IMG/VR virus record: IMGVR_UViG_3300031625_000826 | Origin: a virus | Length of the DNA stretch: 10,570 nt | Direction: 5' to 3' (one strand) | Shown: one piece after another, positions 792 through 5,349 of the stretch | Layout of the letters: every line of letters starts with the position of its first letter | Position numbering within the stretch: position 1 is the stretch's first letter | Notes under the pieces: model-generated | Databases searched by the model: none | The model's input: only the letters and a program-made list of their open reading frames with translations | Told to the model about the DNA's origin: nothing | Position numbers and translations under genes: made by a program

Positions 792-810
792 CAGTTTTGT
801 TCCTTAAAAG

Positions 811-1058
811 ACACCATATAACTCCCGTAAGCAAAGTTTTGTTCTATGTCTACATTTATCTCTCCACTTTGGAGGGCCGTGTATTATCACTAGCCTGCAC
901 CAACCCGACCATTATAGTGTCGCTACACACACTAAGTCTGTTTGGCTTGCACGCATCGTGGTTCAAACGAGCAATTTGCTCTCCCACAAGGAGCGAATGT
1001 GCCTTGACTTTCCTCTAACTTCAAATGAAGCCAGCGTAGACTCGGAGTTATATGGTGT
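811..1058. repeat. Perfect 15-bp inverted repeat (811-825 ACACCATATAACTCC and 1044-1058 GGAGTTATATGGTGT) enclosing a 218-bp non-coding spacer.
   Basis: The arms are exact reverse complements, read directly from the sequence. The spacer has no ORF of 60 aa or more on the coding (minus) strand. Read on the minus strand it contains a TATAAT hexamer (916-911) and a 6-1-6 palindrome GAGCAA-T-TTGCTC (969-981). Confidence 0.6.
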
Positions 1059-1138
1059 TTCAATTCCTAAAAACGCATGGGCGACAATACCATTTCGTTC
1101 TGAAGTTGACCGTTTTCGAAGGCGTTGAGCTGTATTCT

Positions 1139-1273
1139 TCAAAGAATCTGGACGAAGCCATTCTTCTCTTCATCGTATTTTTCTCTTTTATCTCTGGAAA
1201 AGAGAGTCCACTTGGTTGTCCCCCAGATAGCTCCGATAACGAAGTATCCAACGGCTCCGATGGCGACCCACAT
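1139..1273 (-). CDS. Putative small single-pass membrane protein (44 aa if started at ATG 1273; 73 aa if started at TTG 1360, which would overlap ARH by 29 nt).
   Basis: The sequence has a hydrophobic stretch, VVAWLWHNPMWVAIGAVGYFVIGAIWGTT, followed by a charged tail, KWTLFSRDKREKYDEEKNGFVQIL. No convincing RBS precedes either start. Alternative ORFs overlap on both strands, so coding status is uncertain. Confidence 0.3.
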   Translation of the reverse strand: MWVAIGAVGYFVIGAIWGTTKWTLFSRDKREKYDEEKNGFVQIL

Positions 1274-1331
1274 TGGATTATGCCACAGCCAAGCGACAAC
1301 ATTGAAGATGGCGTATTTGTGTGAAAAAGAA

Positions 1332-2339
1332 TCACACAAATTGTTCAACGAAACGTTCAATTAGTTCATGGAGTTCTTCTTTCTTTTGAACTCCATCGAT
1401 TAGTTCTGTCGGGAAAATACTTTTCCCATGCAAAGCCCCAATCATTGAAGCAAACATTGAACCATTTGTGTCCGTATCGCCGCCTGCGTTGACTACATTA
1501 TACAGGCCCTCGATTGTTTGATCTTTCAAAAAATGAGCATATGTGAAAGGTAGGCTGTGGTAAACATAACATCCACTTGCCGACTCAAACAGGCGATCTT
1601 TTTTATCGGATTCAAATCCGAAAAGAAGATTAAATCTCTCCCGTAGAGAATCTTCTTTTTTGGTTAATGGTGGGTCAAGCTTAGCATGTTCAACGAATCC
1701 TTCAACGTAAGCGTGGTCGACAATTTCGTCTATGAAGGCATTTTCATCAAATTCTTCTGGCTGAAAAGCCAAACAGTGTTGAATAGCTTGAGTATGAGCT
1801 ATTGCTGCGTAAGCCGACATATCTGTGTAATGACTCATCGCAGAAAATTGAACTATTTTTTTGTAAGATGGATCACTTGTATTTGGAATACCGACCATAA
1901 AGTCCCAAATCGCAATCGGAGCGATTTTCATTGGGACGCCATTTCCAGTTCCTCGATTAGGATTATCAGTAATCCCTGATTCAGACCAATGAGCACCATC
2001 TTTTAATTTGCGAATGGACTCTTGAGTAGAATAACCCCAACCTTCTACGGACTCTGCCATTGCCAGCGTGTGATACTTAGCGATGGCATCCATGTCAAAA
2101 TCATTTGCTTCAAGCAAGGCTTTAACAACAGCAAAGGAAAGATGTGTGTCATCAGTCCAAAAACCTAAAGGCTGATCGTTAAACCACTTATGCCCAAGAG
2201 GTTGTTTGTATTCGGTGACTCTGGTGTGGATGTCTGCAATCTTTTCAGCAGAGTATCCTTCGACAGGTGCCCCAAGAGCATCGCCTACCACGATTCCCCA
2301 CAAGCAGCCACGTATTTTGTCTTCAATTGGTATTTGCAT
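1332..2339 (-). CDS. ADP-ribosylglycohydrolase family protein (ARH/DraG-like), 335 aa.
   Basis: N-terminal GCLWGIVVGDALGAPVEG and C-terminal GGDTDTNGSMFASMIGALHG are the two signature metal-binding motifs of the ADP-ribosylglycohydrolase fold. The ORF ends in an ATGA-type junction region. Confidence 0.85.
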   Translation of the reverse strand: MQIPIEDKIRGCLWGIVVGDALGAPVEGYSAEKIADIHTRVTEYKQPLGHKWFNDQPLGFWTDDTHLSFAVVKALLEANDFDMDAIAKYHTLAMAESVEGWGYSTQESIRKLKDGAHWSESGITDNPNRGTGNGVPMKIAPIAIWDFMVGIPNTSDPSYKKIVQFSAMSHYTDMSAYAAIAHTQAIQHCLAFQPEEFDENAFIDEIVDHAYVEGFVEHAKLDPPLTKKEDSLRERFNLLFGFESDKKDRLFESASGCYVYHSLPFTYAHFLKDQTIEGLYNVVNAGGDTDTNGSMFASMIGALHGKSIFPTELIDGVQKKEELHELIERFVEQFV

Positions 2340-2374: not shown

Positions 2375-2833
2375 TCACTTTTTGGATTTTACTTTCTTTT
2401 TTGCCGCCTTTATTCTCACTGGCTTCTTCTTGGCAACAACTTTTTTTGGTTTTGGTTCAAACTTGTCAATTTTCTTTTGAAGATCAAGACTCATCATGTA
2501 TGCAGTCTCTTTAGACGAACCAATTAGTCTATAGAGAGTTTCAGGTGCAAATTCGATATTAGCCGCATGAGGCACTTCCGCCTTCAAGTGGCACTCAGGA
2601 CATAACGACACACCATTGCTTTTCACGTATCCGCCAGCAGGCATTTCATCTCTTGTTGTGATGTGATGAGCATCAAGCTCGCACAATACTGCTCCAGAAG
2701 CTTCCTGTTTGGCTACTTCTTGCAGATCGTTGTGATCATATCCCTGCCGCCCACAACATCTACATTTGTGTTGATCACGGGCAAAAACTGCACCACGGAA
2801 TTCTTTTCTCATTGTCTTCTTAAAATTACTCAT
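2375..2833 (-). CDS. HNH endonuclease with a C-terminal lysine-rich (histone-H1-like) tail, 152 aa.
   Basis: A CRCCG Cys cluster is followed by the HNH core DAHHITTRDEMPAGGYVKSNGVSLCPECHLKAE (His-His...Asn...His with a CxxC zinc ligand). The C-terminus is KPKKVVAKKKPVRIKAAKKKVKSKK. Its start overlaps the OCD stop (TAATG). Confidence 0.85.
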   Translation of the reverse strand: MSNFKKTMRKEFRGAVFARDQHKCRCCGRQGYDHNDLQEVAKQEASGAVLCELDAHHITTRDEMPAGGYVKSNGVSLCPECHLKAEVPHAANIEFAPETLYRLIGSSKETAYMMSLDLQKKIDKFEPKPKKVVAKKKPVRIKAAKKKVKSKK

Positions 2834-3825
2834 TATTGCTCCTTTAACTTTTCGTAAATGTAGTTTGCTACCGCTATGTCTTGAATCGCTAAGCCTGTTG
2901 AATCAAACAAAGTGATTTGATTTTCTCTTGTTCTGCCAAGGCACTCAGCCAAGTTGCAAAAAGTTTTGCCTGACCTTTTTCCCCAAGGCATACAAGCCAT
3001 TTTTCCGCTATTGCTTGAAGGTGGGTGATAAGCGTGCTGGGTTTCTCCTGAATGAACAGCTTGTTCAAAGTCGTCAACCACCCAAATGTCAACTGCCTTA
3101 TATGTTTGAGAATCAAATTCTCTTTTGCCTTCTGCGTCTGCTCCCATTGCGTTAATGTGAACGCCTTTTTTGAGCCATTTTGCTTTCACTATTGGAGCAG
3201 TAGACGGAGTCAATGTTGTCACAATGTCTGCTCCGTCAACACATTCTTCTATGGACTTACATGCTTTTGATCCGTGCCAAAGTTCTGGCCTGTTATTTAA
3301 ATGAAACTTTCCTTCATTAGCAGAGCACATAAGATCACAAACTTCAGTATTTAGATCGAAAAAACGAACTTCAGCTATGCTGGGTCTAACGCTACAGATT
3401 GCATCTACGTGTAGTTGGGTTTGTGCTCCACAACCAATAAACGCTGCGATTTGTCCTTTACGGGGAATTCCATCGATGTTAGACAATAAATTTGTAGCAA
3501 CTCCGGCAGCCGCCGCCGTTCTTAATTTTGTGATATGAGTTGCTTCAAGGATTGCTAAAAGCTCACCCGTTGTAGCTGAATTCAAAATGATGGTGGCCAG
3601 CACAGTTGGCAAATTTTGCTGAGAATTTTCAGGAAAAACGCTGACCCATTTGACGCCAGCGACATCTCCTATGCGGACGGGCATGGCTCGGAAATCGCCA
3701 CTGGGGCAATCAATGTAAGTTTTGGAAACTGTCGAAGTATCTGTAGACTGAAATGCTTCGCCCACGATATCAATTACTTCAGACAGGTTAGTCGCCTGTT
3801 CGCATTGTAAATCTGTGATTATCAT
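2833..3825 (-). CDS. Ornithine cyclodeaminase / mu-crystallin family NAD(P)-dependent enzyme, 330 aa.
   Basis: The family hallmarks are present: LRTAAAAG, the Rossmann motif IGCGAQ, DIVTTLTPS, HINAMGADAEGKREFD, and the C-terminal ITLFDSTGLAIQDIAVANYIYEK. This is compared from memory with Pseudomonas ornithine cyclodeaminase. The ATGA overlap means the upstream gene's stop overlaps this start. Confidence 0.85.
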   Translation of the reverse strand: MIITDLQCEQATNLSEVIDIVGEAFQSTDTSTVSKTYIDCPSGDFRAMPVRIGDVAGVKWVSVFPENSQQNLPTVLATIILNSATTGELLAILEATHITKLRTAAAAGVATNLLSNIDGIPRKGQIAAFIGCGAQTQLHVDAICSVRPSIAEVRFFDLNTEVCDLMCSANEGKFHLNNRPELWHGSKACKSIEECVDGADIVTTLTPSTAPIVKAKWLKKGVHINAMGADAEGKREFDSQTYKAVDIWVVDDFEQAVHSGETQHAYHPPSSNSGKMACMPWGKRSGKTFCNLAECLGRTRENQITLFDSTGLAIQDIAVANYIYEKLKEQ

Positions 3826-4130
3826 CTTGGGGCTTTCTGTCCTTGGGCTGTATTTGCCACATCTCGCAACACATCATCGTAGCATTCAAATTCGGCTTTG
3901 TCTTCATCAAACTTGGGTTCTAACTGGTATTCATAGCAATCTTTGCGATGTTCTTTAGATATGACCCAAAACAGATGACGACATTCCCAACAGTCGACGC
4001 CATCGATGTCATATTTTGCGTCACCTGAGAACCAATTTGGTGCTTCGCAGAAAGGACACCAAATTTTGTGCCAAGTTGATAAAGATGGCTCCCAATTGGG
4101 ATCATCCAAATAGCTATTTTTAAGGCTCAT
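3822..4130 (-). CDS. Small Cys4 zinc-ribbon protein (about 102 aa from the ATG at 4130). The track ORF extends to 4238, but that start would overlap the upstream gene by 119 nt.
   Basis: It carries CPFC...CWEC pairs in WHKIWCPFCEAPNWFSGDAKYDIDGVDCWECRHLF. The 4130 start has GGAAAA 1 nt upstream and overlaps the preceding stop by 11 nt. Alternative starts lie at 4142 and 4166. Its stop is the ATGA junction with OCD. Confidence 0.55.
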   Translation of the reverse strand: MSLKNSYLDDPNWEPSLSTWHKIWCPFCEAPNWFSGDAKYDIDGVDCWECRHLFWVISKEHRKDCYEYQLEPKFDEDKAEFECYDDVLRDVANTAQGQKAPR

Positions 4131-4449
4131 ATTTTCCAACATATTCTTCAAACAAGAGTGTTTCATTGTATCGATAAGACACTGTGTCTTCTTCGTGATC
4201 GAAATCTTCAGGAAGCTGATCCAGTTCGTAGATTGCAACTCTAGTTCCCTGCTTGGGTGTTCTGTTAAAGAATACGTTAAGAACCTTTAGTCCAAGTTTT
4301 CCTTTTTCAACTGAACCATCTTCCTCTAACTCGATCCACCATAATTTAGGAGGAGTTTCAATTTCGGCTATAACCTCATCCTCAAGACCATCGCCCGGCC
4401 CGCCAAAGAACTCTGCATCGAATCCCCAGCCATTACCACCTTCCATCAT
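4120..4449 (-). CDS. Hypothetical acidic protein, 109 aa.
   Basis: It is a clean ORF whose start lies in an ATGATGA junction with the FkbM stop, consistent with translational coupling. The sequence is Asp/Glu-rich and matches no family I recognise. Confidence 0.65.
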   Translation of the reverse strand: MMEGGNGWGFDAEFFGGPGDGLEDEVIAEIETPPKLWWIELEEDGSVEKGKLGLKVLNVFFNRTPKQGTRVAIYELDQLPEDFDHEEDTVSYRYNETLLFEEYVGKYEP

Positions 4450-5288
4450 GCTCCTCCCTTTTTGAAGTCGCCTTCTCCATAACCCCTAGTGAAGAAATCT
4501 CGTTCAATTGCCTTGTCCCATTCTTTCTTTTCTTTCGGATACGCAAACATATTTCCAGAAACTATGAAATTAACAACCCCTTCTTTATCCACAGTATCGA
4601 ATACATCTACATCATTACCGTAAAAATTATCTGTGTTAAACAAGGGCGGGCGATGGAAAAAGTAACTGTATTCATGCTCCTTCAAAAATTCGATAACCTT
4701 TTCTGACTCTTCCTTGCTTTCAGCCTCAACATATAAGAATGGCCTTGTTCTTTTGATTGTTTCTGCTGCTCCAGCCAAAACATCCAATTCTTCTCCTTGA
4801 ACATCAATTTTGATCAAATGAAGAGCAGATAATTCAAGGCTATCAATGGTGCATGTGGCAACTGGAATGCACAACATGTCTTTTTTAACTCGACTAGTTG
4901 AATTGTCTCCAAAGTTGCCTTCTTCCTCGTAGTTTAATACAGGAATACCACGAACTTCACCGCTAACATTGCTTGCTAATCTCTGGAATACGGCTGTGTT
5001 GGATAGGTTGTTTACTGCCACATTGCCACAGAGGATGTGGTAGATGTACTGTTGCGGCTCAAAAGCCACCACATAGCCTCCTGAGCCTATCTTTTGGGCC
5101 AATGGGATTGTGATCCCGCCTATGTTTGCCCCGCAGTCTATGAACACGTCACCGGGTTCAATGAGGTCTTTAAGGAAATTCACTTCATGATAAGAGAATT
5201 CTCCGTACAAATCAAAAGATTTGCCAATGTACTTGTCCTTGTTGGGGAAGATGATAGGCCCATATCTGCTGTCTTTAATGATGTTCAT
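4446..5288 (-). CDS. FkbM-family SAM-dependent methyltransferase, 280 aa.
   Basis: VFIDCGANIGGITIPLA is the Gly-rich SAM-binding motif. LIKIDVQGEELDVLAGA is the characteristic FkbM-domain motif. No SD is present, and the gene starts only 22 nt downstream of the strong terminator, so it is probably expressed by read-through. Confidence 0.8.
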   Translation of the reverse strand: MNIIKDSRYGPIIFPNKDKYIGKSFDLYGEFSYHEVNFLKDLIEPGDVFIDCGANIGGITIPLAQKIGSGGYVVAFEPQQYIYHILCGNVAVNNLSNTAVFQRLASNVSGEVRGIPVLNYEEEGNFGDNSTSRVKKDMLCIPVATCTIDSLELSALHLIKIDVQGEELDVLAGAAETIKRTRPFLYVEAESKEESEKVIEFLKEHEYSYFFHRPPLFNTDNFYGNDVDVFDTVDKEGVVNFIVSGNMFAYPKEKKEWDKAIERDFFTRGYGEGDFKKGGA

Positions 5289-5310
5289 GTACTAGCAGAG
5301 TATTGAGCTA

Positions 5311-5349
5311 ATAAAAAAGCCTCGCCAGTAAGAATACTGGCGAGGCTTT
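5311..5349 (-). terminator. Rho-independent terminator following the MVP homologue.
   Basis: A perfect 12-bp stem (5319-5330 paired with 5335-5346, GCCUCGCCAGUA/UACUGGCGAGGC) closes a 4-nt loop. On the minus-strand transcript it is followed by UUUUUUAU (complement of 5318-5311). It lies 26 nt after the MVP stop codon. Confidence 0.85.

What the first reader, a model, noticed from the sequence alone, without database searches (positions are those of the whole stretch)
1332..2339. ADP-ribosylglycohydrolase next to a vault-protein gene block, suggesting either an ADP-ribosylation link or an anti-defence role
Eukaryotic vaults carry a dedicated poly-ADP-ribose polymerase (vault PARP/PARP4) that modifies MVP. 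An ARH-fold hydrolase in the same co-directional block as an MVP homologue hints at a parallel ADP-ribosylation cycle. Alternatively, a phage ARH could reverse host ADP-ribosylating defences, or degrade ADP-ribose-derived immune signals, for example DarT-type modification or cyclic ADPR signalling.
Basis: inference. Interest (0 to 1): 0.6.

Follow-up and report, generated by a model that had tools for sequence, protein, structure and literature searches.

The report
Phage ADP-ribose-removing enzyme, not vault-linked
The gene is a real, probably active ADP-ribose-removing enzyme of an uncultured marine phage, but its position near the vault-protein gene looks like an accident of gene order in one small group of phages, not a working partnership.

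Summary
Window 1332-2339 (- strand) encodes a 335-aa ADP-ribosylglycohydrolase (PF03747, E=1.7e-48). The structure model is confident (pLDDT 92.7). Every ARH3 metal-binding and catalytic residue is present and invariant in 40 homologues. A major-vault-protein (MVP) homologue lies 3 kb upstream on the same strand.

The proposed MVP link is not supported:
- A strong terminator, conserved by structure, follows the MVP gene. ARH is the last gene of a separate, tightly packed six-gene unit.
- ARH-MVP adjacency occurs only in this marine clade (ARH 65-100% identical). None of 82 other viral MVP loci has an ARH within 10 kb.
- Only 1 of 94 other loci of this ARH subfamily has an MVP nearby.
- The sequenced huge phages that match carry either MVP or ARH, never both.

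One branch of the subfamily instead sits 0.7-7.5 kb downstream of a phage WGR-PARP with an intact H-Y-E triad, a writer-eraser pair. The window clade belongs to the other, PARP-less branch. There ARH usually sits among RNA-repair and replication genes.

My best reading is a stand-alone, ARH3-like eraser of ADP-ribose adducts. Its substrate is unknown, and an anti-defence role stays open. It is a new member of a known kind.

The parts
1332..2339 (-). ADP-ribosylglycohydrolase (ARH), 335 aa, the subject of the finding. Predicted active. Key residues: E27; T62-D63-D64; G100-W101-G102; G132-N133-G134; H170; D288-x-D290-T291.
   Evidence: PF03747 E=1.7e-48. AlphaFold2 pLDDT 92.7, pTM 0.93. Foldseek best matches MJ1187, Lmo0067, DraG and ARH3. 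Residue mapping to human ARH3 and invariance in 40 homologues.
2375..2833 (-). HNH-motif protein, 152 aa, with a lysine-rich C-terminal tail. It lies directly upstream of ARH across a 35-nt gap.
   Evidence: PF01844 E=5.3e-5. phrog_24030, annotated 'RNA ligase', N-terminal region, E=9.8e-13. Homologues at 42-62% identity lie near ARH in L018, L218, L236, L244 and L249.
2833..3825 (-). Ornithine cyclodeaminase/mu-crystallin family NAD(P)-dependent enzyme, 330 aa. Its stop overlaps the HNH start.
   Evidence: PF02423 E=1.5e-68. It is below every NCBIfam equivalog cut-off. It is found next to ARH only in the window clade.
3822..4238 (-). Small protein with CxxC...CxxC cysteine pairs. Gene callers give 102 aa, starting near 4130. 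Function unknown.
   Evidence: ORF list and called genes in L001. No Pfam, PHROG or NCBIfam hit. Restricted to the clade.
4120..4449 (-). Small acidic protein, 109 aa, function unknown. It overlaps the FkbM stop by 4 nt.
4446..5288 (-). FkbM-family methyltransferase, 280 aa. It is the first gene of the tightly packed six-gene unit that ends with ARH.
   Evidence: PF05050 E=3.6e-21. TIGR01444 scores 89.9 against a cut-off of 37.7.
5316..5349 (-). Intrinsic terminator hairpin (15-bp stem, 8 G-C pairs, then a T-run) between the MVP stop and the FkbM start. It separates MVP from the ARH-containing unit.
   Evidence: Terminator scan. RNA fold dG -36.5 kcal/mol, z -6.77, with 0 of 200 shuffles as stable. 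An equivalent hairpin with a different stem sequence and the same TTTTTTATTAGC tail is present in L008, L010 and L011.
5372..8152 (-). Major vault protein homologue (926 aa from the first ATG; gene callers give 881 aa). It is a neighbour, judged not functionally coupled to ARH.
   Evidence: MVP_shoulder E=5.4e-24 and Vault_3 E=6.8e-10. Human MVP E=3.2e-16. 209 IMG/VR stretches encode relatives, and no neighbouring gene family is shared by more than 17 of 82 loci.
1139..1360 (-). Remnant of a gene for a 257-263-aa membrane protein that follows ARH in related phages. It is truncated or degenerate in the window lineage.
   Evidence: 65% identity over 52 aa to residues 50-101 of L008:11046-11837 (E=8e-26).

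Best explanation
The gene encodes a catalytically competent, metal-dependent ADP-ribosyl-acceptor hydrolase. Its active site resembles ARH3 more than DraG. It should bind the ADP-ribose moiety of an adduct, use a two-metal centre and Glu27 to cleave the bond at ribose C1'', and release free ADP-ribose.

It is an old, vertically kept gene of a lineage of large environmental phages. In the window clade it is the last gene of a six-gene unit (FkbM methyltransferase, two small proteins, an OCD-family enzyme, an HNH protein, ARH). That unit starts after a terminator downstream of the MVP gene.

No ADP-ribosyltransferase is encoded within 10 kb in four clade lineages. It therefore most likely acts as a stand-alone eraser of ADP-ribose placed on proteins or nucleic-acid ends during infection. 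The writer would be the host, or a phage enzyme encoded elsewhere. This would be a repair or counter-defence role.

Its position near MVP is an accident of clade-specific gene order.

Shown: family, fold, active-site integrity, gene order, terminator, comparative distribution. Inferred: activity, substrate class, biological role.
For: Family and fold:
- PF03747 full length.
- AlphaFold2 pLDDT 92.7.
- Foldseek probability 1.0 to MJ1187, Lmo0067, DraG and ARH3.

Active site:
- E27=E41, T62/D63/D64=T76/D77/D78, D288/D290/T291=D314/D316/T317, G132-N133-G134=G150-N151-G152 and H170=H182 of human ARH3. These positions are invariant or nearly invariant in 40 homologues.
- The human ARH3 sequence used was checked as 100% identical to PDB 2foz.
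- At the position of DraG Asp97 the subfamily has an invariant Gly inside 'GWG'. ARH3 has 'GYG' there, whereas DraG has Asp97 (Asn in the D97N variant chain used) and MJ1187 and Lmo0067 have 'DIG'.

Transcription unit:
- Start and stop codons overlap from FkbM to HNH.
- A conserved terminator follows MVP.

No writer nearby:
- No PARP or other ART hit within 10 kb in L001, L008, L010 or L011.

Lineage conservation:
- The phage subfamily groups apart from the cellular ARHs and human ARH3 used as outgroups.
- Outside metagenome and viral contigs it appears only in CPR-type MAG bins.
- The window clade shares ARH, the HNH protein, pyrF and a ResIII/DEAD helicase (52-57% identity) with the PARP-less branch.

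No MVP coupling.

Precedent:
- Phage-borne orphan ADP-ribose erasers act as counter-defence: NADAR AdfN (PMC11825919) and a DarG2-like macrodomain (PMC13309987, from its abstract as listed).
- Iyer et al. argue that phage ARH ('ARG') domains prefer macromolecular adducts (PMC9503650).
Against: - No activity or substrate was tested.
- An ADP-ribosyltransferase could be encoded elsewhere in the roughly 170-kb genome, of which I saw only about 21 kb around ARH.
- In the PARP-less branch ARH usually lies between a polynucleotide kinase-phosphatase gene and an RNA ligase gene. That could instead point to small ADP-ribose by-products of RNA repair as the substrate.
- The ARH3-like call rests on one motif. 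Overall identity to ARH3 is only 19-20%.
- The window ARH matches no PADLOC model, and I found no paper describing an ARH-fold phage counter-defence enzyme.
Confidence: 0.45

Rival explanations
1. Self-eraser. ARH reverses or trims ADP-ribosylation written by a phage-encoded WGR-PARP, as gene order suggests in the sister branch. In the window clade the PARP gene would simply lie elsewhere in the genome.
For: - A WGR-PARP with an intact H-Y-E triad lies 0.7-7.5 kb upstream of ARH and co-directional in 19 of 94 subfamily loci, or 13 of 35 with at least 9.5 kb of upstream flank.
- In reverse, 7 of 20 viral PARP loci carry ARH downstream.
- Huge phage LR756511 has PARP and ARH 4.2 kb apart.
- A NUDIX gene often sits beside ARH.
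- The ARH3-like 'GWG' motif fits the O-glycosidic products of PARPs.
Against: - In a neighbour-joining tree the PARP-linked ARHs form one branch (13 of 15 with enough flank). The window clade sits in the other branch, where 1 of 18 has even a weak PARP-like hit.
- No PARP lies within 10 kb in four window-clade lineages.
- No PARP lies in the 80 genome-bin loci.
Confidence: 0.2
2. Small-molecule hydrolase. ARH degrades a soluble ADP-ribose derivative. Candidates are a TIR-made immune signal with a ribose-ribose O-glycosidic bond (gcADPR isomers), O-acetyl-ADP-ribose, or ADP-ribose by-products of RNA repair.
For: - ARH3, which the active site resembles, cleaves O-acetyl-ADP-ribose and ribose-ribose bonds in poly-ADP-ribose (titles cited within PMC8120803; otherwise established knowledge).
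- In the PARP-less branch ARH is flanked by a polynucleotide kinase-phosphatase gene and an RNA ligase gene.
- Iyer et al. discuss processing of ADP-ribose derivatives in phage RNA repair (PMC9503650).
Against: - The same review argues that phage ARH domains, being far rarer than Macro and NADAR domains, prefer macromolecular adducts.
- No RNA ligase or kinase-phosphatase lies within 10 kb in the window clade.
- I found no paper linking an ARH fold to gcADPR cleavage.
Confidence: 0.15
3. Vault-linked cycle. ARH acts on ADP-ribose attached to or bound by the phage MVP shell, in parallel with PARP4 and MVP in eukaryotic vaults.
For: - ARH and MVP are 3 kb apart and co-directional in four lineages of the window clade.
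- One unrelated locus, L234, has PARP-NUDIX-ARH and then MVP within 10 kb.
- L100/L264 has MVP and PARP 7 kb apart.
- One 286.5-kb contig probably encodes all three.
- The human MVP shoulder binds NAD+, ADP and ADP-ribose (PMC12280208; bioRxiv 10.64898/2026.05.01.722283).
Against: - None of 82 other viral MVP loci has ARH within 10 kb, and MVP has no conserved neighbour at all.
- 1 of 94 ARH loci and 1 of 20 PARP loci have MVP nearby. My rough estimate is that this is about what chance gives if the families share a phage lineage.
- The sequenced huge phages carry MVP or ARH+PARP, not both.
- A conserved terminator follows MVP.
- Human MVP R511 aligns to Met581 in the HMMER alignment, so the nucleotide pocket is not evidently kept.
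Confidence: 0.06
4. Non-ADP-ribose metabolic role. ARH works with its operon partners (FkbM methyltransferase, OCD-family enzyme) on another ribosylated metabolite, as an auxiliary metabolic gene alongside the nearby pyrE, pyrF and coaD.
For: - Tight translational coupling of FkbM through HNH, with ARH 35 nt downstream.
- The surrounding genes include pyrE, pyrF and coaD-like genes.
Against: - The OCD and FkbM genes accompany ARH only in the window clade, 0 of 94 other loci.
- The residues that align with the diphosphate- and ribose-contacting positions of ARH3 (the GNG loop, H170, the GWG motif) are invariant.
Confidence: 0.07

Closest known systems
ARH3 (ADPRHL2/ADPRS), eukaryotic serine-ADP-ribose and poly-ADP-ribose hydrolase
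   Same: Same fold (Foldseek TM about 0.75). The two-metal ligand set, the catalytic Glu, the GNG loop and His182 are identical. It shares a Gly-aromatic-Gly motif at ARH3 G115-G117, where DraG-type enzymes have an Asp.
   Different: Only 19-20% identity. Sequence searches rank MJ1187 and Lmo0067 higher. Residues at the ARH3 adenine-stacking positions F143 and Y149 differ (D125, T131). The gene is phage-encoded.
DraG and Tri1, bacterial arginine-ADP-ribose hydrolases paired with DraT or Tre1
   Same: Same superfamily and fold. DraG ranks third to sixth by Foldseek. There is a weak TIGR02662 match.
   Different: The score of 74 is far below the TIGR02662 cut-off of 337, and 33 is far below 490 for Tri1. 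The third residue of the E-D-D motif (DraG D97; PMC8120803) is replaced by an invariant Gly. No adjacent transferase.
MJ1187 (PDB 1t5j) and Lmo0067 (PDB 8za7, the ARH immunity protein of a Listeria ART-ARH toxin-immunity pair)
   Same: Best matches by sequence (E about 1e-21 and 2.5e-20) and by structure.
   Different: 24% identity. Both carry 'DIG' where the phage subfamily has 'GWG'. Lmo0067 is paired with a toxin, and the window ARH has no such neighbour. I found no paper on Lmo0067.
Phage ARH ('ARG') proteins of jumbo phages (PHROG 6572; Iyer et al. 2022, PMC9503650)
   Same: An ARH domain encoded by large phages. It matches phrog_6572 at E=3.5e-30. About 5% of jumbo phages are reported to carry one, with a proposed preference for macromolecular adducts.
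   Different: Cultured jumbo-phage ARHs are only 23-26% identical. The window protein belongs to a distinct subfamily seen in metagenomes, huge-phage contigs and a few CPR-type MAG bins. That review, as far as I read it, does not mention a WGR-PARP-ARH gene pair or any vault protein ('vault' and 'WGR' each occur 0 times).
Phage orphan ADP-ribose erasers used as counter-defence (NADAR AdfN of T4, PMC11825919; DarG2-like macrodomain of chimalliviruses, PMC13309987)
   Same: The same logic: a phage carries an eraser with no cognate writer nearby.
   Different: Different folds (NADAR and macrodomain, not ARH). For those, the DNA substrate and the defence system (DarTG) are known. Nothing is known here.
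Eukaryotic vault (MVP + PARP4 + TEP1)
   Same: An MVP homologue is present, and ADP-ribose chemistry is encoded nearby.
   Different: There is no PARP in the window. The phage PARPs seen elsewhere are WGR-type. I did not look for a TEP1-like NADase. ARH-MVP linkage is not conserved.

Membership tests
ADP-ribosylglycohydrolase superfamily (Pfam PF03747; DraG-like/ARH fold) | Full-length match above the family's curated score | tested here: met
   166.2 bits against a cut-off of 26.2. Residues 11-311 cover profile positions 1-286 of 287.
ADP-ribosylglycohydrolase superfamily (Pfam PF03747; DraG-like/ARH fold) | All-alpha ARH fold | tested here: met
   AlphaFold2 pLDDT 92.7 with 16 helices. Foldseek probability 1.0 and TM 0.72-0.77 to MJ1187, DraG and ARH3.
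ADP-ribosylglycohydrolase superfamily (Pfam PF03747; DraG-like/ARH fold) | Two-metal site ligands (N-terminal Thr-Asp-Asp, C-terminal Asp-x-Asp-Thr) and catalytic Glu | tested here: met
   T62-D63-D64, D288-x-D290-T291 and E27 align with ARH3 T76-D77-D78, D314-x-D316-T317 and E41. All are invariant or nearly invariant in 40 homologues.
ADP-ribosylglycohydrolase superfamily (Pfam PF03747; DraG-like/ARH fold) | Hydrolysis of ADP-ribosyl adducts | not testable with these tools
   Needs enzyme assays.
ARH3 subtype (O-glycosidic: Ser-ADP-ribose, poly-ADP-ribose, O-acetyl-ADP-ribose) | Gly-aromatic-Gly at ARH3 115-117 instead of the DraG-type Asp | tested here: met
   G100-W101-G102 is invariant or nearly invariant in the subfamily.
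ARH3 subtype (O-glycosidic: Ser-ADP-ribose, poly-ADP-ribose, O-acetyl-ADP-ribose) | Closest sequence relationship to ARH3 among characterised ARHs | tested here: not met
   ARH3 E about 1e-9 to 1e-11, against MJ1187 1e-21 and Lmo0067 2.5e-20. Identity to ARH3 is 19-20%.
DraG (TIGR02662) and Tri1 (NF041672) arginine-ADP-ribose hydrolases | Score above the curated equivalog cut-off | tested here: not met
   74.1 against 337 for DraG, and 32.9 against 490 for Tri1.
DraG (TIGR02662) and Tri1 (NF041672) arginine-ADP-ribose hydrolases | E-D-D catalytic motif including the DraG Asp97 equivalent | tested here: not met
   The Asp97 position is Gly100. The motif is as listed in PMC8120803.
DraG (TIGR02662) and Tri1 (NF041672) arginine-ADP-ribose hydrolases | Adjacent cognate transferase (DraT, Tre1 or another ART) | tested here: not met
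   No ART or PARP within 10 kb in L001, L008, L010 or L011.
Huge-phage WGR-PARP + ARH module (seen here in L013, L234, LR756511 and others) | ARH of the same subfamily | tested here: met
   35-42% identity over the full length. The phage subfamily groups apart from the cellular ARHs and human ARH3 used as outgroups.
Huge-phage WGR-PARP + ARH module (seen here in L013, L234, LR756511 and others) | WGR-PARP gene within about 8 kb upstream, co-directional | tested here: not met
   Absent from the window and from 10 kb flanks in four clade lineages. The window clade falls in the PARP-less branch.
Vault-like system (MVP with an ADP-ribose-handling partner) | MVP homologue present | tested here: met
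   MVP_shoulder and Vault_3. Human MVP E=3.2e-16.
Vault-like system (MVP with an ADP-ribose-handling partner) | Conserved genomic linkage of ARH (or PARP) with MVP across MVP-encoding phages | tested here: not met
   0 of 82 MVP loci with ARH and 2 of 82 with a PARP-like hit. 1 of 94 ARH loci and 1 of 20 PARP loci with MVP. GenBank huge phages carry one or the other.
Vault-like system (MVP with an ADP-ribose-handling partner) | Co-transcription of MVP and ARH | tested here: not met
   A strong, structurally conserved terminator lies directly after MVP. This is a prediction only; there are no expression data.
Vault-like system (MVP with an ADP-ribose-handling partner) | Conservation of the human MVP NAD+/ADP-ribose pocket residues (R437, R511, L517) | tested here: inconclusive
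   In the HMMER alignment R511 aligns with M581 and L517 with R587. R437 lies outside the aligned region, and there is a gap nearby.

The most novel reading that the evidence does not exclude
Some large phages may build a vault-like MVP shell that works with ADP-ribose chemistry. The phage MVP shoulder would bind NAD+ or ADP-ribose as the human vault does. Phage PARP (writer), ARH (eraser) and NUDIX (ADP-ribose disposal) would then form a prokaryotic-virus counterpart, or even an ancestor, of the MVP-PARP4 partnership. The evidence that keeps this alive is sporadic co-location: L234 (PARP-NUDIX-ARH, then MVP, within 10 kb), L100/L264 (MVP and PARP 7 kb apart), one 286.5-kb contig that probably encodes all three, and the window clade (ARH 3 kb from MVP).
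Probability: 0.06. Interest if true: 0.85.

Novelty: new member of a known kind. Interest (0 to 1): 0.3.

Why it matters
As stated, the finding is ordinary. ARH-fold genes are already known in large phages, and the link to the vault protein does not survive comparison. Two by-products may be useful.

- A distinct ARH subfamily, found almost only on phage-type contigs, splits into two branches. One is paired with a WGR-PARP that keeps the H-Y-E triad typical of poly-ADP-ribose polymerases. That is a candidate complete writer-eraser system in bacteriophages, which I did not find described in the papers I searched. The other branch is PARP-less and sits in RNA-repair neighbourhoods.
- MVP homologues turn out to be common in uncultured phages (209 matching stretches in IMG/VR) and have no conserved partner gene. 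This constrains ideas about what phage vault proteins do.

Tried and rejected
- NAD+ salvage link. I suspected the nearby CTP_transf_like and Pribosyltran genes were NMNAT and Nampt-like. NCBIfam shows they are CoaD-like (TIGR01510, 109 against a cut-off of 103), PyrE and PyrF. Rejected.
- A single-sequence scan of viral contigs with ARH found nothing. An alignment-based scan was needed.
- Megablast of the whole window against GenBank phages gave no match. The UvrD-like helicase has only distant phage hits. The phage has no cultured relative.
- A literature search for Lmo0067 returned nothing. Searches for ARH-type anti-defence or gcADPR-cleaving phage enzymes gave no ARH-fold example.
- PADLOC gave no hit for ARH, MVP, HNH, OCD or the phage PARP.
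- Pfam and PHROG searches of the recurrent unknown neighbours of ARH (families of about 245, 244, 308, 179 and 225 aa) gave nothing above noise. I could not tell whether one is a hidden transferase.
- Conservation of the NAD+ pocket in the phage MVP was inconclusive.
- There are no tRNA genes and no Rfam families in the window.
- The promoter scan was not above the shuffled expectation, 6 found against 8.3 expected.
- I ran no further search on PARP. Only the best 120 hits are listed, so a divergent window-clade PARP would probably not have shown up.
- One paper search failed on term syntax.
Full report
**1. What is in the window**

All credible genes lie on the - strand. In the direction of transcription they are:
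- an unknown 194-aa protein (9126-9710);
- an RNase T-type exonuclease (8506-9081);
- an unknown protein (8115-8549);
- a major vault protein (MVP) homologue (5372-8152; MVP_shoulder E=5.4e-24, Vault_3 E=6.8e-10);
- an FkbM methyltransferase (4446-5288);
- two small unknown proteins (4120-4449 and 3822-4238);
- an ornithine-cyclodeaminase/mu-crystallin family enzyme (2833-3825);
- an HNH-motif protein (2375-2833);
- the ADP-ribosylglycohydrolase, ARH (1332-2339; PF03747 E=1.7e-48, full length).

The same ARH protein is on nine marine and aquatic metagenome contigs. Downstream of ARH those contigs carry a CoaD-like adenylyltransferase, PyrF, a nucleoside deoxyribosyltransferase-like protein, a UvrD-like helicase and a ResIII/DEAD helicase. 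Relatives also carry PyrE. There is no close cultured phage. The nearest ARH and MVP relatives in GenBank phages are metagenomic huge phages.

**2. Is the enzyme likely to work?**

AlphaFold2 with a 40-sequence alignment gives a confident all-helical model (pLDDT 92.7, pTM 0.93). Its best structural matches are MJ1187, Lmo0067 (the hydrolase half of a Listeria ART-ARH toxin-immunity pair), DraG and ARH3. Sequence searches against the PDB give the same ranking.

I checked my copy of the human ARH3 sequence against PDB 2foz; it is 100% identical. I then aligned it to the family. The equivalences are:
- E27 = E41;
- T62-D63-D64 = T76-D77-D78;
- D288-x-D290-T291 = D314-x-D316-T317;
- G132-N133-G134 = G150-N151-G152;
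- H170 = H182.

All of these are invariant or nearly invariant in 40 homologues.

One subtype clue stands out. DraG has Asp97, the third residue of its E-D-D motif (PMC8120803). MJ1187 and Lmo0067 have 'DIG' at that position. This subfamily has an invariant 'GWG' there, like the 'GYG' of ARH3. Scores are far below the curated cut-offs for DraG and Tri1. I read this as ARH3-like chemistry, that is, cleavage of O-glycosidic bonds. That is an inference from one motif.

**3. Is ARH tied to MVP?** Three lines of evidence say no.

*Transcription units.* A 15-bp, G+C-rich hairpin followed by a T-run sits between the MVP stop and the FkbM start (window 5316-5349, - strand). It folds at -36.5 kcal/mol (z = -6.8). 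In three related lineages the hairpin is kept with different stem sequences, and the tail TTTTTTATTAGC is kept. That pattern is what a functional terminator would show. After it, FkbM through HNH are joined by overlapping start and stop codons, and ARH follows after 35 nt. ARH is therefore the last gene of a six-gene unit that excludes MVP.

*Synteny depth.* The whole region, from the exonuclease to the helicases, is collinear in phages whose ARH is 65-78% identical (L008 on a 169.8-kb contig, L010, L011 and L012). Adjacency inside this clade is therefore just conserved gene order.

*Wider distribution.*
- An alignment-based scan found 209 MVP-encoding stretches in IMG/VR. Of the 80 kept plus two others, none has an ARH within 10 kb. 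No neighbouring gene family is shared by more than 17 of 82 loci.
- Of 94 loci of this ARH subfamily outside the window clade (32-43% identity), only L234 has an MVP nearby.
- In GenBank, LR756500, LR756501 and LR756503 carry MVP but no ARH or PARP. LR756511 carries ARH and PARP but no MVP.

By my rough estimate, one or two chance co-locations are what one would expect if MVP sits at a random place in genomes of the same broad lineage.

**4. What does ARH travel with instead?**

An all-against-all clustering of ORFs around the 94 loci shows a WGR-PARP gene 0.7-7.5 kb upstream, always co-directional. It is present in 19 loci, or 13 of 35 with at least 9.5 kb of upstream flank. In the reverse direction, 7 of 20 viral PARP loci carry the ARH downstream, and only one carries MVP. 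The phage PARPs keep the His, Tyr and Glu of the H-Y-E triad. A NUDIX gene often sits beside ARH.

A neighbour-joining tree (a rough method with no support values) splits the subfamily.
- PARP-linked ARHs form one branch. 13 of 15 members with enough flank have a PARP.
- The window clade lies in the other branch, where 1 of 18 has even a weak PARP-like hit.
- In that second branch the usual order is polynucleotide kinase-phosphatase, AAA ATPase, helicase (opposite strand), an unknown 245-aa protein, ARH, RNA ligase, an unknown 179-aa protein.

The window clade shares ARH, the HNH protein, PyrF and the helicase (52-57% identity) with that branch. It has no kinase-phosphatase, RNA ligase, NUDIX or PARP within 10 kb.

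In species-level genomes, the subfamily appears only in CPR-type MAG bins, one of them labelled 'viral-cat'. None of those loci has PARP or MVP. Other cellular homologues are 30% identical or less. ARH thus looks like a long-held phage gene whose neighbours have changed around it.

**5. Mechanism**

The chemistry is well supported by homology: two-metal, Glu-assisted hydrolysis at ribose C1'' that releases ADP-ribose.

The biological substrate is not known. I favour a stand-alone eraser of macromolecular ADP-ribose on proteins or nucleic-acid ends, for three reasons:
- no writer is nearby;
- the sister branch is paired with a macromolecule-modifying PARP;
- Iyer et al. (PMC9503650) argue on distribution grounds that phage ARH domains prefer macromolecular adducts.

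Orphan erasers of other folds are proven phage counter-defences (PMC11825919). The rivals are a PARP elsewhere in the genome, a soluble ADP-ribose derivative as substrate, coupling to MVP, and a non-ADP-ribose metabolic role with the operon partners. They are listed with their tests.

**6. Literature context for the vault idea**

The human MVP shoulder binds NAD+, ADP and ADP-ribose (PMC12280208). TEP1 is an NADase in the vault (bioRxiv 10.64898/2026.05.01.722283). Phage MVPs were first noted in gut phages (bioRxiv 10.1101/2023.11.10.566534).

This makes an MVP-ADP-ribose connection attractive in principle. In the HMMER alignment, however, human R511 aligns with Met581 of the phage protein, and R437 is not aligned. 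I could not show that the pocket is kept.

**7. Verdict**

The enzyme is probably active. The MVP link is not supported. A PARP link is real for a sister branch but not shown for this clade. The anti-defence idea remains open.

This is a new member of a known kind. Interest is modest for the finding as stated. The phage WGR-PARP-ARH pairing is a more interesting side result.

Noticed in passing
L013:3899-5461 (PARP) and L013:10001-11065 (ARH); L234:770-2386, 4549-5166 and 5564-6604; LR756511 181246-188026: Huge-phage contigs carry a WGR-PARP with an intact H-Y-E triad a few kb upstream of an ARH of the window's subfamily, often with a NUDIX gene between them. This is a candidate complete ADP-ribosylation writer-eraser-disposal set in phages. 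I did not find it described in the papers I searched.
   Followed up: partly
window 5290-5349 (- strand); L008:7055-7175; L010:7216-7315; L011:7025-7155: The terminator hairpin after MVP is followed in all four lineages by a conserved tail, TTTTTTATTAGC...TACTCTGCTAG, just before the FkbM start. The stems differ while the tail is kept, so the tail may be a promoter or translation signal for the next unit.
   Followed up: partly
window 792-1360: Relatives have a 257-263-aa membrane-protein gene directly after ARH. The window lineage keeps only a 52-aa-long similar stretch (1139-1360, - strand; 65% identity). Gene callers instead annotate an antisense 89-90-aa ORF (1052-1324, + strand), which is probably spurious.
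   Followed up: partly
L001:14878-17355 against L008:18597-20033; L011:15255-18656: The ResIII/DEAD helicase is 825 aa in the window strain against 478 aa in relatives, and the similarity is split around an insert of about 1 kb with a faint LAGLIDADG hit. The UvrD-like helicase of L011 and L012 is 1133 aa with a faint intein-splicing hit. These are probably inteins in replication genes.
   Followed up: no
L095-L174 (IMG/VR MVP loci): MVP homologues are far more common in uncultured phages than the two gut phages described in the 2023 preprint: 209 confirmed stretches in IMG/VR, many on contigs of 100-500 kb. No neighbouring gene is conserved. The closest cellular MVPs (43-48% identity) are from Myxococcota MAGs.
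   Followed up: partly
L100:10001-12637 (MVP) and L100:19495-21072 (PARP), the same contig as L264: One 258-kb viral contig has an MVP and a WGR-PARP 7 kb apart, with no ARH within the fetched flanks.
   Followed up: no
L017, L020, L024, L199, L236, L249 and others: In the PARP-less ARH branch the gene sits in a recurring order: polynucleotide kinase-phosphatase, AAA ATPase, helicase, an unknown 245-aa protein, ARH, RNA ligase, an unknown 179-aa protein. The unknown 245-aa protein directly upstream of ARH in 16 of 19 loci has no detectable family. It may be worth a structure prediction as a possible hidden partner.
   Followed up: partly
window 2375-2833 (- strand): The HNH-motif protein ends in a lysine-rich tail (KKKPVRIKAAKKKVKSKK). 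Its N-terminal 100 residues match the N-terminus of a PHROG annotated as RNA ligase (phrog_24030). Homologues recur several kb from ARH in distant phages.
   Followed up: no
L275-L287 (GTDB genome bins): The only 'cellular' genomes holding this ARH subfamily at 32-41% identity are MAG bins, mostly of CPR/Patescibacteria lineages. One isolate is named 'viral-cat_48_13'. These contigs may be mis-binned phage DNA.
   Followed up: no
window 2833-3825 and L001/L008 flanks: The region is rich in auxiliary metabolic genes that are unusual for a phage: an OCD/mu-crystallin-family enzyme (below every NCBIfam equivalog cut-off), PyrE, PyrF, a CoaD-like adenylyltransferase and a nucleoside deoxyribosyltransferase-like protein.
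   Followed up: partly
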